Assembly: GCA_036149055.1 (NCBI GenBank)
Contig: JAYZQJ010000072.1
Span: forward strand, 1 to 15,783
DNA length: 15,783 nucleotides
Source: Myxococcota bacterium
GTDB lineage: Bacteria; Myxococcota_A; Polyangia; Polyangiales; Sandaracinaceae
Direction of reading: 5' to 3'
Shown: positions 979-15,783 of the stretch, piece by piece
Position numbering within the stretch: position 1 is the stretch's first letter
Layout of the letters: the number at the start of each line of letters is the position of its first letter
The notes under the pieces: generated by a model
What the model saw: the letters and a program-made list of their open reading frames with translations, nothing else
What the model was told of the DNA's origin: nothing
Databases searched by the model: none
Position numbers and translations under genes: made by a program

Positions 979-2286
<1,308 letters not shown>

Positions 2287-2319
2287 CGCCCGCCCGAAGC
2301 CGGACTCGCCCCGGGGTCG

Positions 2320-2820
2320 TCAGGGGCAGAAGTCGAAACGGAACCGGAGACCGTAGCGAGCCAGGTCGTCGAGCGCACGTCCGAACGCGTCGAGCTCTTC
2401 GCGAACCGCCTCCTTCAGCTCCGAGGAGCGCTCGTGCGAGGCGACCATCGCGACCGCGGCGCGCGCCACGGAGGAGTCGAACCAGGCGTCGGGGCTCTCG
2501 GAGTAGAAGGCGCGGTGCAGGCTGGGCCGCCCCTCCGCCTCGAGGATCGCGGTGACGGTCTCGTCGTGGAGGAGCGGGCGCCACCCCAGGTTGTCTCCCG
2601 CCCACCGGCACGCGGCGTCGAGCTCCGCCAGCCTCTCCGCGCGGTGCCGCGCGAGCCACCCCCTCAGCAGCGCCGCGCGGATGTGCGGCACCATCTGCGC
2701 GGGGACCGCCCCATCACCGCCCTGCTCCACCCAGGCGGCCGTGATCTCGCTCGACGCCGGCTCCGGGATGTCGAGCCGGTCCAGGTCCTCTTCGACCCGC
2801 AGAACGTACGTGTATCCCAT
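2320..2820 (-). CDS. Hypothetical protein, 166 aa
   Basis: ATG at 2820 is preceded by GGGAGG, so it is preferred over the ORF-track GTG at 2886. Protein-like composition with a helical C-terminus (WFDSSVARAAV...EELDAFGRALDDLARYGLRFRFDF). Convergent with pepP. Confidence 0.7.
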   Translation of the reverse strand: MGYTYVLRVEEDLDRLDIPEPASSEITAAWVEQGGDGAVPAQMVPHIRAALLRGWLARHRAERLAELDAACRWAGDNLGWRPLLHDETVTAILEAEGRPSLHRAFYSESPDAWFDSSVARAAVAMVASHERSSELKEAVREELDAFGRALDDLARYGLRFRFDFCP

Positions 2821-3120
2821 GCGCCTCCCGCCGGATCCTAGCAGCAGCCCGAGTCGTCTCGTGCGGTAGAAGCCGAGCTTGCGCACCGAGAGCGGTGCCC
2901 CAGCACGCCGAGCGTGGGGCTCAGCCCGGCCCGCGTCGTGTGCGACCTGGTGGGCATCCGGCTACGCCGCGCGGCGCTGCCCGGTCGTCGCGGAGGTCCG
3001 CGCGTCCTCGAGCAGGCCTTCCCTTCGCTCCAGCGCGAGCGCCGCACCGTTCTTCGCCGGCGCCCGTCGATCCCACTCGGGCGGCGAACCCGGAACGCCG
3101 CAGCGGGCTCTTCCAGCTGC

Positions 3121-3408
3121 GGCCCCGCATTTCAGAATGTGGTGGCCATCGTTCCGGAACGAGAATCCGAAAAAAATCCGAGCCGCGGGTCGATCTGCGT
3201 ACCTCGAACGATACGGAATCACGAGTTGTCGGCGATTCTCCGGGGATTCGCGCTTGGAGCTCGCTCCGCGAAGCGATTCTGCGGAGAGTCTCGTCCGCGT
3301 TCGCTTCGCTTCCGTGATTTTCGAGCGCGGCTCGACCCGGAACGCGCTTTCCCTCGAATTTTCGAGCGACTTCGCCGAAAAAACGCAACAGGACCGCGAT
3401 TTTTCGGA
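3121..3408. other. AT-richer, hairpin-dense non-coding segment (candidate structured RNA or MITE/REP-like element)
   Basis: At least six stem-loops or palindromes: 3121-3147, 3149-3162, 3264-3286, 3321-3335, 3353-3366, 3375-3407. TCCGAAAAA (3166-3174) is also inverted at 3400-3408. Overlapping ORFs look non-coding. Confidence 0.45.
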
Positions 3409-13150: not shown

Positions 13151-15297
13151 CGCGACCCCTCCCCTTCGACCGGCGCAAGCCGCGCGACGACGAGGTGCTC
13201 CAGGGCACCGTGGTCGAGCAGCGGTTCGCCAGCGCGGACGGCCGCTTCGCGGTGCTGCTCGTGCGGCGGGAGGCGGTCGACGAGGAGGTGTCGGTGGTCG
13301 GCGACGTGGCCGGGCTCACCGAGGGCGAGGACGCGCGCTTCCGCGGCCGCTGGGAGGAGCACGCCAAGTTCGGCAAGCGCTTCCGCGCGGTCGGCTGGAC
13401 GCCGGTGCTGCCCACGACCCACGCCGGCCTCCAGCGCTTCCTCGGCTCGGGGCTGATCCCCGGCGTCGGCCCGCGGCTCGCCCAGCGCCTCGTGGAGCGC
13501 TTCGGCGATCGCACCCTCGACGTGATCAGCACCCAGAGCGCCCGGCTCCGCGAGATCTCCGGCATCGGGAAGAAGCGCGCCGAGGCGATCGCGGAGGCGG
13601 TCCGCACCCGCCGCGCCGACGCCGAGAACCTCTCGTTCCTCGCGAGCCTCGGGGTCGGCCCGTCGCTCTCGCGCCGGCTGCTCGAGAAGTACAAGGACCG
13701 CACGGTGCACGTGCTGCGCGAGGACCCCTACCTCGCGGCGGAGGAGGTGCGCGGCGTCGGCTTCCGCACCGCCGACTCGATCGGGCGCGCCGCCGGCATC
13801 GGGGTGGACGACCCGCGGCGCGCGGCGGGCGCGGTGCTGCACCTCGTCGCCAAGGGCGCCGACGACGGCCACGTGTTCCTGCCCCGCGACGTCCTGCGGG
13901 CCCGGGCGAGCGAGCTGCAGGTGCCCGCGCCGCTGGTCGATCCCGCGGTCGAGGCGCTCGTGGCCCGCGACATGCTCGTGGCCGAGGAGGATCGGGTCTA
14001 CGCGCCCCCGCTCCACCGCGCGGAGGTGGCCGCCGCCGCGCTGCTCGGCGCCCTCGCCCGCCCCCGCGCCGGCCGGAAGGAGGCGGCCCGCGAGCTCCAG
14101 ATCTCGGACCTGCTCAGCGATCAGCAGAAGGACGCGGTCCGGCTCTCGCTGACCAGCGGCCTGATGGTGCTCACCGGCGGGCCCGGCACCGGCAAGACGA
14201 CCACCCTCGAGGCGATCGTCGAGGCGCACGAGAAGCTCGAGCTCCGGGTGACCCTCTGCGCGCCGACCGGCCGCGCGGCCAAGCGCATGAGCGAGGCGAG
14301 CGGCCGCGAGGCGAAGACCATTCACCGCCTGCTCGAGTGGAACCCGGTCACCGGCGACTTCAACAAGACCGCCGACGAGCCCCTCGCGACGGATCTGGTC
14401 GTGGTCGACGAGGCCTCGATGCTCGACCTCGTGCTCGGCCGCTCGCTCCTCGAGGCGATCCCCAAGAGCGCGAGCCTGGTCCTCGTCGGCGACGTCGATC
14501 AGCTCCCGCCGGTCGGCGCGGGCCAGCTCCTGCGCGAGCTGATCCGCTCCGAGGTCGCGCCGGTGATCCGCCTGAAGACCGTGTTCCGGCAGGCCCAGGA
14601 GAGCGCCATCGTGCGCGGCGCCCACGCGCTCTTGGACGGGAAGATCCCGACGCCGACCGAGCGCGGCCAGAAGGGGAGCGGCGACCTCTTCCTGATCCGC
14701 AGCCGCGATCCCGAGGTGATCATCGACAAGCTGCGCTCCACGCTGCAGCGCATCCCCACCGCCTACGGCCTCGACGCCAAGCGCGACGTGCAGGTCCTGG
14801 TGCCCATGCGCCGCGGCACCCTCGGCACCGAGAACCTCAACGCCGCGCTCCAGGAGGCGCTCAACCCCGGCCGCGGCGCCGCCGGCGCCTTCCGCACCGG
14901 CGACAAGGTCATGCAGCTCCGCAACGACTACGAGCGCGAGGTCTTCAACGGCGACATCGGCTGGGTCCAGTCGGTGGTCGACGGCGTGACCTACGTCGAG
15001 TTCGACACGGGCACCCGCAGCTACAAGGCCGACGACCTCGACGCCCTCACGCTCGCCTACGCGACCACCATCCACAAGTCGCAGGGCTCCGAGTTCCCGG
15101 CCGTCGTGCTCGTCCTGCACGGCGCCCACCACGTCCTCCTCTCCCGGGCCCTCGTCTACACCGCGGTCACCCGCGCCAAGCGCCTCGTCGTCATCGTCGG
15201 CGATCCGAGAGCCATCGCCCGGGCCGCCCGCACCACCGACACCCACGATTCGTTCTGTGAGCTCGCGTCGCGCCTCGCCCGCCTCGCCGATGGCTGA
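13147..15297 (+). CDS. recD2: ATP-dependent RecD2 (SF1B) DNA helicase, 716 aa
   Basis: GTG 13147 overlaps the upstream TGA (GTGA). N-terminal HhH motifs (IPGVGP, ISGIGKKRA, GVGFRTAD), Walker A GGPGTGKT, APTGRAAKR, TIHRLL, DEASM, GDVDQLPPVG, TIHKSQGSEF, YTAVTRAK. Confidence 0.95.
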   Translation: MTRPLPFDRRKPRDDEVLQGTVVEQRFASADGRFAVLLVRREAVDEEVSVVGDVAGLTEGEDARFRGRWEEHAKFGKRFRAVGWTPVLPTTHAGLQRFLGSGLIPGVGPRLAQRLVERFGDRTLDVISTQSARLREISGIGKKRAEAIAEAVRTRRADAENLSFLASLGVGPSLSRRLLEKYKDRTVHVLREDPYLAAEEVRGVGFRTADSIGRAAGIGVDDPRRAAGAVLHLVAKGADDGHVFLPRDVLRARASELQVPAPLVDPAVEALVARDMLVAEEDRVYAPPLHRAEVAAAALLGALARPRAGRKEAARELQISDLLSDQQKDAVRLSLTSGLMVLTGGPGTGKTTTLEAIVEAHEKLELRVTLCAPTGRAAKRMSEASGREAKTIHRLLEWNPVTGDFNKTADEPLATDLVVVDEASMLDLVLGRSLLEAIPKSASLVLVGDVDQLPPVGAGQLLRELIRSEVAPVIRLKTVFRQAQESAIVRGAHALLDGKIPTPTERGQKGSGDLFLIRSRDPEVIIDKLRSTLQRIPTAYGLDAKRDVQVLVPMRRGTLGTENLNAALQEALNPGRGAAGAFRTGDKVMQLRNDYEREVFNGDIGWVQSVVDGVTYVEFDTGTRSYKADDLDALTLAYATTIHKSQGSEFPAVVLVLHGAHHVLLSRALVYTAVTRAKRLVVIVGDPRAIARAARTTDTHDSFCELASRLARLADG

Positions 15298-15331: not shown

Positions 15332-15387
15332 GCCACTCAGCCACTCAGCCACTCGCAGGAAGCGAGGAAGGTAGGAAGCGAGGAGGT
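15332..15387 (+). repeat. Short tandem repeats: (GCCACTCR)x3 and (AGGAAGCGAGGA[A]GGT)x2
   Basis: Read directly at 15332-15355 and 15357-15387. Confidence 0.85.
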
Positions 15388-15422: not shown

Positions 15423-15482
15423 CCGAGTCCGAGACCGAGTCCGAGACCGAGACCGAATCGGAGACCGAATCCGAGACCGACT
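15423..15482 (+). repeat. Hexamer microsatellite, consensus CCGAGA, 10 units
   Basis: ccgagt ccgaga ccgagt ccgaga ccgaga ccgaat cggaga ccgaat ccgaga ccgact. Confidence 0.92.
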
Positions 15483-15512: not shown

Positions 15513-15659
15513 CCGCCGGCGAGCCCCCATCCCGCCGCCACCCAGCCCCTTTGCGCCTTTGCGCCTTTGAGAGAGCCAATTTGCTCCCGCAGCACCCGCC
15601 ACCAAGCGCACGACCAGGTGGCCGCCGGCCAGCCCCCATCCCGAGGCCACCCCACCCCT
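15513..15659 (+). repeat. 38-bp direct repeat, two copies (15513-15550 and 15622-15659); copy 1 runs into (CTTTGCGC)x2 CTTTGAGA
   Basis: ccgccggcgagcccccatcccgccgccacccagcccct vs ccgccggccagcccccatcccgaggccaccccacccct, 33/38 identical, offset 109. Octamer run at 15549-15572. Confidence 0.85.
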
Positions 15660-15783
15660 GTCGAGTAGCCCCGCCCCCTCACGGAGGCGGGGCCCTCACC
15701 AGATCCGGACTAGGAGATTTCCACCATCCGGCTCCTCCGCCGAGCTCGCCTCATGCAGACCAGATGTCGACTCGGATCGAGGG
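15660..15783 (-). mobile_element. Group II intron, 3' end (domains V and VI), truncated by the window edge
   Basis: The minus strand reads GAGCCGGATGGTGGAAATCTCCTAGTCCGGATC (DV, 15734-15702, AGC triad, GAAA loop). It continues TGGT-GAG-G-GCCCCGCCTCC-GTGA-GGGGGCGGGGC-T-A-CTC-GAC (DVI with GNRA loop and bulged branch A at 15666) and ends in AC at 15660. Confidence 0.92.
15751..15783 (-). CDS. ltrA: C-terminal tip of the group II intron-encoded reverse transcriptase/maturase (partial)
   Basis: The minus frame reads PSIRVDIWSA-stop, ending 16 nt before DV. This is the expected position for an intron-encoded protein, and the PxIxVxIW ending resembles those I recall from endonuclease-less IEPs. 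Only 10 codons are visible. Confidence 0.65.
   Translation of the reverse strand, partial: PSIRVDIWSA

What the first reader, a model, noticed from the sequence alone, without database searches (positions are those of the whole stretch)
15513..15783. Group II intron inserted precisely at the end of a repeat unit, with an apparently empty target copy 109 bp away
Seen: the 38 nt abutting the intron 3' splice site (15622-15659) match 15513-15550 at 33/38. Similarity stops exactly at the intron boundary, and weaker similarity extends further upstream (ccacca...ccag(a)gtg). In copy 1 the equivalent position continues into TTGCGCCTTTGCGCCTTTGAGAGAG. Inference: copy 1 is an unoccupied homing site, reading CTCTCTCAAAGGCGCAAAGGCGCAA|AGGGG on the intron strand. 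The intron would then target a multi-copy extragenic repeat as a safe haven. This parallels IIC introns that target terminators or attC sites, but here the target is a short-tandem-repeat element. Predicted: IBS1 about GCGCAA, IBS2 within the CAAAGGCG run, IBS3 = A.
Basis: partly seen in the sequence, partly recalled or inferred. Interest (0 to 1): 0.75.

Follow-up and report, generated by a model that had tools for sequence, protein, structure and literature searches.

The report
Intron homing into octamer intergenic repeats
A self-splicing mobile intron in this bacterium inserts at one exact spot of a short repeat that the host carries in hundreds of copies between its genes, giving it a large supply of landing sites outside genes.

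Summary
The window ends in the last 124 nt of a group II intron (end of the intron protein gene, D5, D6) on the minus strand. The genome holds 4 such 3' ends and 3 matching 5' ends. All sit directly after the last unit of an extragenic octamer repeat (CGCARAGN, about three units, then AG and a G-rich tail). That repeat has 391 copies against 11-12 in shuffles, in two alternating subtypes, G (CGCAG) and A (CGCAA/CGCCA). A second assembly has 7 further filled sites; four are intact and empty here, continuing with AG. Targeting is ordinary IIB base pairing, not IIC hairpin-seeking: EBS1 is CUGCGU, placed by covariation in 16 related introns. The best target therefore ends RCGCAG (9 of 10 observed 5' exons), not GCGCAA. 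Copy 1 is an A-subtype copy with a mismatch at -1: probably usable (1 of 10 filled sites is A-type) but not a perfect site. The window's own 5' exon is unassembled. One GxxExxY nuclease gene is bracketed by inverted copies of the repeat, which hints at a mobiliser. Verdict: a known mechanism aimed at an apparently unreported kind of target.

The parts
15751..15783 (-). Last ten codons and stop of the intron-encoded protein gene; D5 follows at once, so there is no room for an endonuclease domain
   Evidence: Translates as PSIRVDIWSA*, like the C-termini of full-length related intron proteins. The rest of the intron is absent from the assembly.
15702..15734 (-). Intron domain V with AGC catalytic triad (15733-15731)
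   Evidence: Rfam RF00029 alignment
15660..15697 (-). Intron domain VI with bulged branch A at 15666; the intron ends in AC at 15660
   Evidence: identical in 4 contig ends
15622..15659 (-). 3' exon: AG plus the G-rich tail of the occupied repeat element; +1 (IBS3) is the A at 15659
   Evidence: Contigs of runs X11 and X3 follow this stretch with 2 differences and stop matching at 15659, as an empty allele would.
15583..15621 (.). Spacer between the two repeat elements
   Evidence: Also present in the 89% identical paralogous doublet at the start of contig C45
15551..15582 (-). Empty A-subtype element (copy 1): AT-rich leader and three octamer units, the first degenerate; the potential insertion point is 15551/15550
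   Evidence: Direct reading. Against this intron: EBS1 4 Watson-Crick pairs, 1 wobble and a mismatch at -1; EBS2 4 of 5.
15513..15550 (-). AG plus G-rich tail of copy 1
   Evidence: 33 of 38 identical to 15622-15659
15423..15480 (.). Unrelated CCGAGA-type hexamer array in the same intergenic region
   Evidence: family D1; many copies elsewhere in the genome
15354..15386 (+). Second short-repeat family (GGAAG units) in the same intergenic region
   Evidence: 120 genome matches against 5 in one shuffle
13501..15297 (+). 3' part of the recD2 helicase gene; left neighbour, not interrupted by the intron
   Evidence: TIGR01448, 629 bits, cut-off 500

Best explanation
This is a recently mobile, endonuclease-less group IIB intron whose guide loops now read the host's abundant extragenic octamer repeat. 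SHOWN: the intron sits after the last octamer unit, before AG, with no base gained or lost. Its Id3 loop (EBS1, CUGCGU) is complementary to exon -1..-6 (RCGCAG), and its EBS2 segment (UGGCG) to -9..-13 with one mismatch. Because the repeat has an 8-nt period, two successive units supply IBS2 and IBS1. INFERRED: EBS3 is U and pairs with the +1 A. The intron RNP reverse-splices into this site and is copied using a replication-fork primer, as described for En-minus introns. The protein adds some preference for the last unit. G-subtype elements are preferred and A-subtype elements tolerated. With about 120 well-matched empty sites outside genes and about 4 filled, the repeat is a large, far from saturated homing reservoir.
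For: 4 of 4 3' junctions and 3 of 3 5' junctions in the genome lie at this register. Synteny with G001 joins C42 to C143 and C198 to C242 and puts the C41 and C73 flanks about 2 kb apart. A full-length 2052-nt relative in G003 matches both ends, and D5-identical full-length introns start with the same 5' motif. 7 of 15 loci from a metagenome scan are the identical intron start at other repeat copies; 4 of the 7 are intact and empty in G000 and continue with AG. The EBS1 loop pairs with its own exon by 5 or more bp in 11 of 16 introns, against 9% of 240 cross pairs; EBS2 averages 4.3 of 5 against 3.0. EBS3 is Watson-Crick to +1 in 13 of 14 full-length relatives. Only 19 of 258 strict IBS2+IBS1+A motifs lie outside the repeat. 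The two 280-nt 5' copies differ at 3 positions. Depth of the intron-end contig over the flank is about 5.3, 4.0 and 1.9 in three runs (rough).
Against: The intron body, its protein and its EBS3 are not in the assembly (EBS3 lies beyond the 280 nt held). Splicing and mobility were not observed. The window's own 5' exon is missing. EBS2 pairing always has a G-A mismatch at -10, and a single-sequence fold hides EBS2 in a hairpin. The G-subtype preference is modest (P about 0.04 treating 10 junctions as independent), and L132 and C198 may be one event. The metagenome scan pattern could only find three-unit, CGCAR-type sites. One copy (C198) is split by an IS after 47 nt. 5 of 16 relatives showed fewer than 5 EBS1 pairs.
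Confidence: 0.88

Rival explanations
1. IIC-like structure targeting: the intron recognises a DNA hairpin or terminator formed by the repeat, with only a short IBS1.
For: Some G-subtype leaders fold a small hairpin with the first unit. A mismatch at either end of IBS1 is tolerated (L123 at -1, L127 at -6). Insertion is at the last unit in 4 of 4 unbiased cases (P about 0.03-0.05).
Against: The 10 filled 5' exons share no fold: energies run from 0.0 to -9.8 kcal/mol against a median of -6.7 for 388 empty elements. No terminator-like site near the window junction. The lineage has 6-nt EBS1, EBS2 and EBS3 covarying with unrelated, non-repeat exons.
Confidence: 0.06
2. Passive spread: the intron inserted once or twice, and the copies moved with the repeat by recombination, gene conversion or repeat mobilisation, not by retrohoming.
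For: The elements form tandem arrays that expand and rearrange (C198, C38, C45). L132 and C198 may be one insertion plus a duplication.
Against: Filled sites keep their own leader, unit variants and tail, matching the orthologous empty allele up to the junction. Co-conversion would homogenise the flanks. Flanks differ between sites while intron ends are 99-100% identical.
Confidence: 0.04
3. Assembly artefact: collapsed repeats joined the intron ends to repeat copies.
For: All junctions lie at contig ends of fragmented assemblies, and the intron body is missing.
Against: The same register recurs in an independent assembly at different loci and matches the intron's own EBS1. Intron-end contigs in three runs include the first 2-3 exon bases.
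Confidence: 0.02

Closest known systems
En-minus group IIB introns (classes D/E/F), e.g. RmInt1 homing into ISRm2011-2, and E. coli introns homing into IS elements
   Same: EBS1/EBS2/EBS3 pairing, no endonuclease domain, and a multi-copy target outside housekeeping genes with most sites left empty. Sources: PMC7923331, PMC4424553 and PMC3522654 (passages read); RmInt1/ISRm2011-2 from the PMC1802570 abstract start in a search listing.
   Different: The target is not a transposase gene but a short non-coding element of about 70 nt with 8-nt periodicity and two subtypes, in about 390 copies. Related intron proteins are only 32-38% identical to Ni.ha.I1 (g3) and 29-36% to Sr.me.I2 (g1).
Group IIC and IIC-attC introns
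   Same: Strategy: insertion next to an abundant intergenic motif that spares genes (PMC4424553 and PMC8919778, passages read).
   Different: No conserved upstream hairpin; long EBS1 plus EBS2 are used; the lineage is IIB-like.
REP/BIME-targeting insertion sequences (IS1397, ISKpn1, IS621, ISPa11, ISPpu9/10, ISRm22, ISPsy8)
   Same: Precise insertion at one point of a species-specific extragenic repeat that occurs in clusters (PMC1525189, passages read).
   Different: Those are DNA transposases. Here the recognition is RNA-guided retrohoming, and the repeat is a tandem octamer array, not a palindrome.
BIME / REPIN-RAYT systems (for the target repeat; defining features recalled, not read here)
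   Same: Species-specific expansion (218 strict matches here, 9 in the congener, none in 36 of 40 relatives), clusters with two alternating subtypes, and inverted copies bracketing a small nuclease gene.
   Different: The units are direct octamer repeats, and the bracketed gene is a GxxExxY PD-(D/E)XK protein (TIGR04256), not an HUH/Y1 RAYT. Its role in spreading the repeat is untested.

Membership tests
Group II intron | D5 with catalytic triad, D6 with bulged A, 3' AY end | tested here: met
   (36.4 bits, E 1.5e-5, below the gathering score of 40)
Group II intron | 5' GUGYG start belonging to the same element | tested here: met
   Three 5' ends, linked by synteny and by full-length relatives
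Group II intron | RT/maturase ORF in domain IV | tested here: inconclusive
   Only the last 10 codons are held. The one RT found in the assembly lies on another contig, away from the intron ends. A relative's protein passes TIGR04416.
Group II intron | Self-splicing and retrohoming activity | not testable with these tools
   Indirect only: filled/empty allele pairs
Group IIB | About 6-bp EBS1-IBS1 | tested here: met
   CUGCGU against RCGCAG; covariation in 11 of 16
Group IIB | EBS2-IBS2 | tested here: met
   Self 4.3 of 5 against cross 3.0; 4 of 5 pairs at this intron's sites
Group IIB | EBS3-IBS3 rather than delta pairing with the exon | tested here: inconclusive
   Met in relatives (13 of 14); this intron's EBS3 lies beyond the assembled 280 nt
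Group IIC / IIC-attC | Upstream stem-loop replaces IBS2; IBS1 of 3-4 bp | tested here: not met
Class F variety g2 (PMC3552965) | FADD motif in RT5 | tested here: not met
   13 of 14 full-length relatives have YADD and one YCDD; this intron's own motif is not held
Class F variety g3 or g1 (PMC3552965) | Protein groups with Ni.ha.I1 or Sr.me.I2 | tested here: not met
   The relatives form a separate clade in a quick tree (SH-aLRT 100), 29-38% identity to these two. The careful tree did not finish.
Class E, g4 or basal class F | Protein phylogeny with reference members | not tested
   No named reference sequences were at hand; the plasmid search gave only generic ltrA names at 49% identity or less
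REP/BIME/REPIN (target repeat) | Extragenic, multi-copy, species-specific, clustered | tested here: met
   391 elements in 154 clusters on 100 contigs. A coding signal follows 3% of 377 elements against 73% of random positions.
REP/BIME/REPIN (target repeat) | Palindromic unit | tested here: not met
   Units are direct octamer repeats with no shared hairpin
REP/BIME/REPIN (target repeat) | Associated RAYT (HUH) transposase | not tested
   I did not search for RAYT genes; a GxxExxY gene is bracketed by the repeat

The most novel reading that the evidence does not exclude
A three-tier parasite system. GxxExxY nuclease genes act like RAYTs, each spreading its own short tandem-repeat family. One family exploded in this species as alternating A/G arrays. 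A IIB intron then retargeted onto it, with EBS1 fitting the G subtype and EBS2 fitting the A subtype, so that it can use both. Retrohoming into such nuclease-linked repeats would be a general, undescribed safe-haven route for group II introns.
Probability: 0.3. Interest if true: 0.75.

Novelty: new variant of a known kind. Interest (0 to 1): 0.52.

Why it matters
A review passage (PMC4424553) lists three target specificities for bacterial group II introns: homing sites, terminators and attC sites. This intron uses ordinary homing-site pairing but gains the IIC-style benefit of hundreds of intergenic sites, by reading a periodic host repeat. About 4 of roughly 124 well-matched sites are filled, and the filled set differs between strains. 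That makes it a natural test of selection-driven versus saturation-driven models of intron spread (PMC3522654): sites are plentiful and apparently cheap, yet copy number stays low. It also exposes a repeat family with BIME-like A/G alternation and a candidate mobiliser, the GxxExxY nuclease. My searches of the paper library found no report of a group II intron homing into REP-like or short tandem extragenic repeats and no repeat link for GxxExxY in the listing. That library lacks most subscription papers, and most hits were seen only as listings.

Tried and rejected
The intron body and protein were sought in the assembly and not found. The window's own 5' exon was sought among contig ends: the three 5' ends found belong to the other three 3' ends. 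C45, the syntenic right neighbour, starts with an IS end and a paralogous doublet without intron. Other intron lineages at this repeat: 8 of 15 metagenome hits and the single other hit among 400 phylum genomes (G649) show no intron features and look like plain repeat copies. Generality beyond this species is therefore not shown. That pattern only covers the CGCAR octamer. The closest family relative (G003) targets a different, non-repeat site. An EBS3 search by alignment column failed and was redone by motif. A delta-to-exon (IIA-type) pairing was considered and dropped because EBS3 covaries in the lineage. Run X4 shows no depth over the intron end, but only 55% of it was read and the flank is also patchy, so nothing is concluded from that. 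No RNA run was laid. The 3' junctions in the second assembly could not be retrieved. IS ends in the genome show no fixed position relative to this repeat. Class assignment got only as far as excluding g1, g3 and the g2 signature. B.th.I3 was not in the collection. Table S2 of PMC3552965 was read; its alignment figures are not held.

Full report
Observation. The window is the whole of contig C72 of a 9.9-Mb, 73% GC genome. Its last 124 nt are the 3' end of a group II intron on the minus strand: the final ten codons and stop of the intron protein, D5 and D6 (Rfam RF00029, 36.4 bits, E 1.5e-5, below the gathering score). The 38 nt next to the splice site match 15513-15550 at 33 of 38, and the match collapses to 3 of 20 beyond the boundary. 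The claimed weaker similarity further left is 9 of 32 without gaps.

Other copies. The same 3' end closes four contigs (C72, C73, C143, C242), and each 3' exon starts AG followed by a G-rich tail. Three contig ends carry a 5' intron start (C41 and C42 with 280 nt; C198 with 47 nt, then an IS), each preceded by three or four CGCAG octamer units. The two ends belong together. A 2052-nt intron in relative G003 matches both. Full-length introns with the same D5 start with the same motif. Gene order in congener G001 joins C42 to C143 and C198 to C242 and places the C41 and C73 flanks about 2 kb apart. The window's own 5' exon is therefore the unassembled one. The gene that follows recD2 in G001 and G003 lies at the start of C45, behind an IS end and an 89% identical copy of the window's doublet whose second element is a decayed G-subtype.

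The target. The element is an AT-rich leader, usually three octamer units, AG and a G-rich tail. I counted 391 elements (11 and 12 in two shuffles): 220 A-subtype, 147 G-subtype and 24 mixed. Same-strand neighbours within 400 nt alternate: 139 A-G pairs, 45 A-A, 10 G-G, and 13 pairs with a mixed element. They form 154 clusters and are non-coding by codon-position contrast (3% of 377 against 73% of 2000 random positions). A strict pattern finds 218 matches here, 9 in the congener, 7, 1 and 1 in three family members, and none in 36 of 40 relatives, so the expansion is specific to this species among those searched.

How the intron reads it. In 16 related introns with enough exon sequence (8 of 25 collected were skipped for a short exon or missing landmark, and one duplicate was removed), the Id3 loop pairs with the intron's own 5' exon by 5 or more bp in 11 cases, against 9% of 240 cross pairs. 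In this intron the loop reads CUGCGU, the complement of RCGCAG. The segment after the conserved GAAA behaves as EBS2 (self 4.3 of 5, cross 3.0). Here it is UGGCG, which pairs with the preceding unit at -9..-13 with a mismatch at -10. It fits CGCAA slightly better than CGCAG and would fit CGCCA perfectly (and direct reading). EBS3 is Watson-Crick to the +1 base in 13 of 14 full-length relatives but lies beyond the 280 nt held for this intron; U is predicted. This is IIB-type recognition as described in PMC7923331 (passages read). No shared hairpin or terminator precedes the sites. Only 19 of 258 strict IBS2-IBS1-A motifs lie outside the repeat, so base pairing alone largely explains the repeat specificity. 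Internal registers are as common as terminal ones (125 against 114), yet 4 of 4 unbiased insertions are terminal (P about 0.03-0.05). This hints at extra recognition by the protein.

Independent sites. A scan of metagenome contigs for three units followed by GTGYG gave 15 loci. Seven, all from one assembly, are the identical intron start; eight look like plain repeat copies. Four of the seven sites are intact and empty in G000 and continue with AG, showing precise insertion. One is decayed, one lies in a rearranged array, and one is absent from G000. Of 10 known 5' exons, 9 end in CGCAG and 1 in CGCAA; P is about 0.04 for a G preference, weakened because L132 and C198 may be one event and the scan pattern was selective. 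In public runs, intron-end depth over flank depth was about 5.3, 4.0 and 1.9 (X1, X3, X11; rough figures). Contigs in X11 and X3 follow the window's 3' exon with 2 differences and stop matching at 15659. A loose end in X4 at that place reads as a mixed array ending in CGCAA on the intron strand. G000 has no other ungapped match to this exon within 6 differences over 95 nt, so that may be the empty allele, though it could also correspond to the C45 paralogue. The subtype at the window's site is therefore open.

Copy 1. It is an A-subtype element with a degenerate first unit: four Watson-Crick pairs, one wobble and a mismatch at -1 to EBS1, and 4 of 5 to EBS2. It is a plausible second-choice site, not the best one; 120 empty elements end in RCGCAG followed by AG.

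Class. Relatives encode RT-maturase proteins of about 440 aa (TIGR04416) that end just before D5, mostly with YADD. They are separate from g1 and g3 references (quick tree only) and lack the g2 FADD signature of PMC3552965 (main text and Table S2 read). Class E, g4 or basal F could not be tested.

Possible mobiliser of the repeat. One of two GxxExxY genes (TIGR04256) is bracketed by inverted G-subtype arrays. The other is bracketed by purine-rich repeats resembling the second repeat family at 15354-15386. By eye, several of the 14 GxxExxY loci fetched from relatives have their own inverted short repeats, one a variant of this family; this was not quantified. Against a simple link: the congener and G018 have repeat copies but no GxxExxY match, and nine relatives have the gene but no strict repeat match.

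Comparison and verdict. The mechanism is known (En-minus IIB retrohoming, with fork priming per PMC4424553). Targeting of extragenic repeats is known for IS elements (PMC1525189), and multi-copy targets are known for introns in IS genes (PMC3522654); passages of these three were read. Eight library searches found no group II intron homing into such repeats. Unchecked notes of this scan report similar cases in other genomes, which suggests a recurring theme rather than a one-off, but they are not support. I rate this a new variant of a known kind, well supported for this species, interest 0.52.

Noticed in passing
G000:C79:64443-64897 (L121): GxxExxY nuclease gene bracketed by inverted G-subtype copies of the target repeat, in a RAYT/REP-like arrangement.
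   Followed up: partly
window 15354-15386; G000:C30 (L122): A second repeat family (GGAAG units, 120 matches against 5 shuffled); similar purine-rich inverted repeats flank the second GxxExxY gene.
   Followed up: partly
L162, L169, L170, L160, L168: GxxExxY genes of relatives carry gene-specific inverted short-repeat flanks; L169 has a variant of this same family.
   Followed up: partly
G000:C198:62677-62848 (L062): An intron copy interrupted by an IS after its first 47 nt. The filled element has four units, while its empty tandem twin 220 nt upstream has three.
   Followed up: partly
L089 (G003), about 1310-3361: Related full-length intron whose protein gene is broken, with part of it apparently inverted; it targets a different, non-repeat site.
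   Followed up: no
L017, L030, L034, L047: Four copies of a related intron in one Archangium MAG share a similar 3' exon (same start and same downstream motif), suggesting homing into another repeat.
   Followed up: no
L061 (minus strand), intron nt about 188-216: The single-sequence fold pairs the alpha-prime region with EBS2 in a 10-bp hairpin that is not in the alignment consensus; possibly an alternative conformation.
   Followed up: no
window 15423-15480: CCGAGA-type hexamer array, abundant in this genome and the congener.
   Followed up: no
G000 contig ends: About 200 contig ends stop in yet another large palindromic intergenic repeat family, and several IS families are collapsed at contig ends.
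   Followed up: no
L124, L125, L133, L135, L136, L137: The same octamer repeat, often as inverted pairs, occurs in unrelated metagenome contigs of 42-67% GC, so the family is widespread.
   Followed up: no
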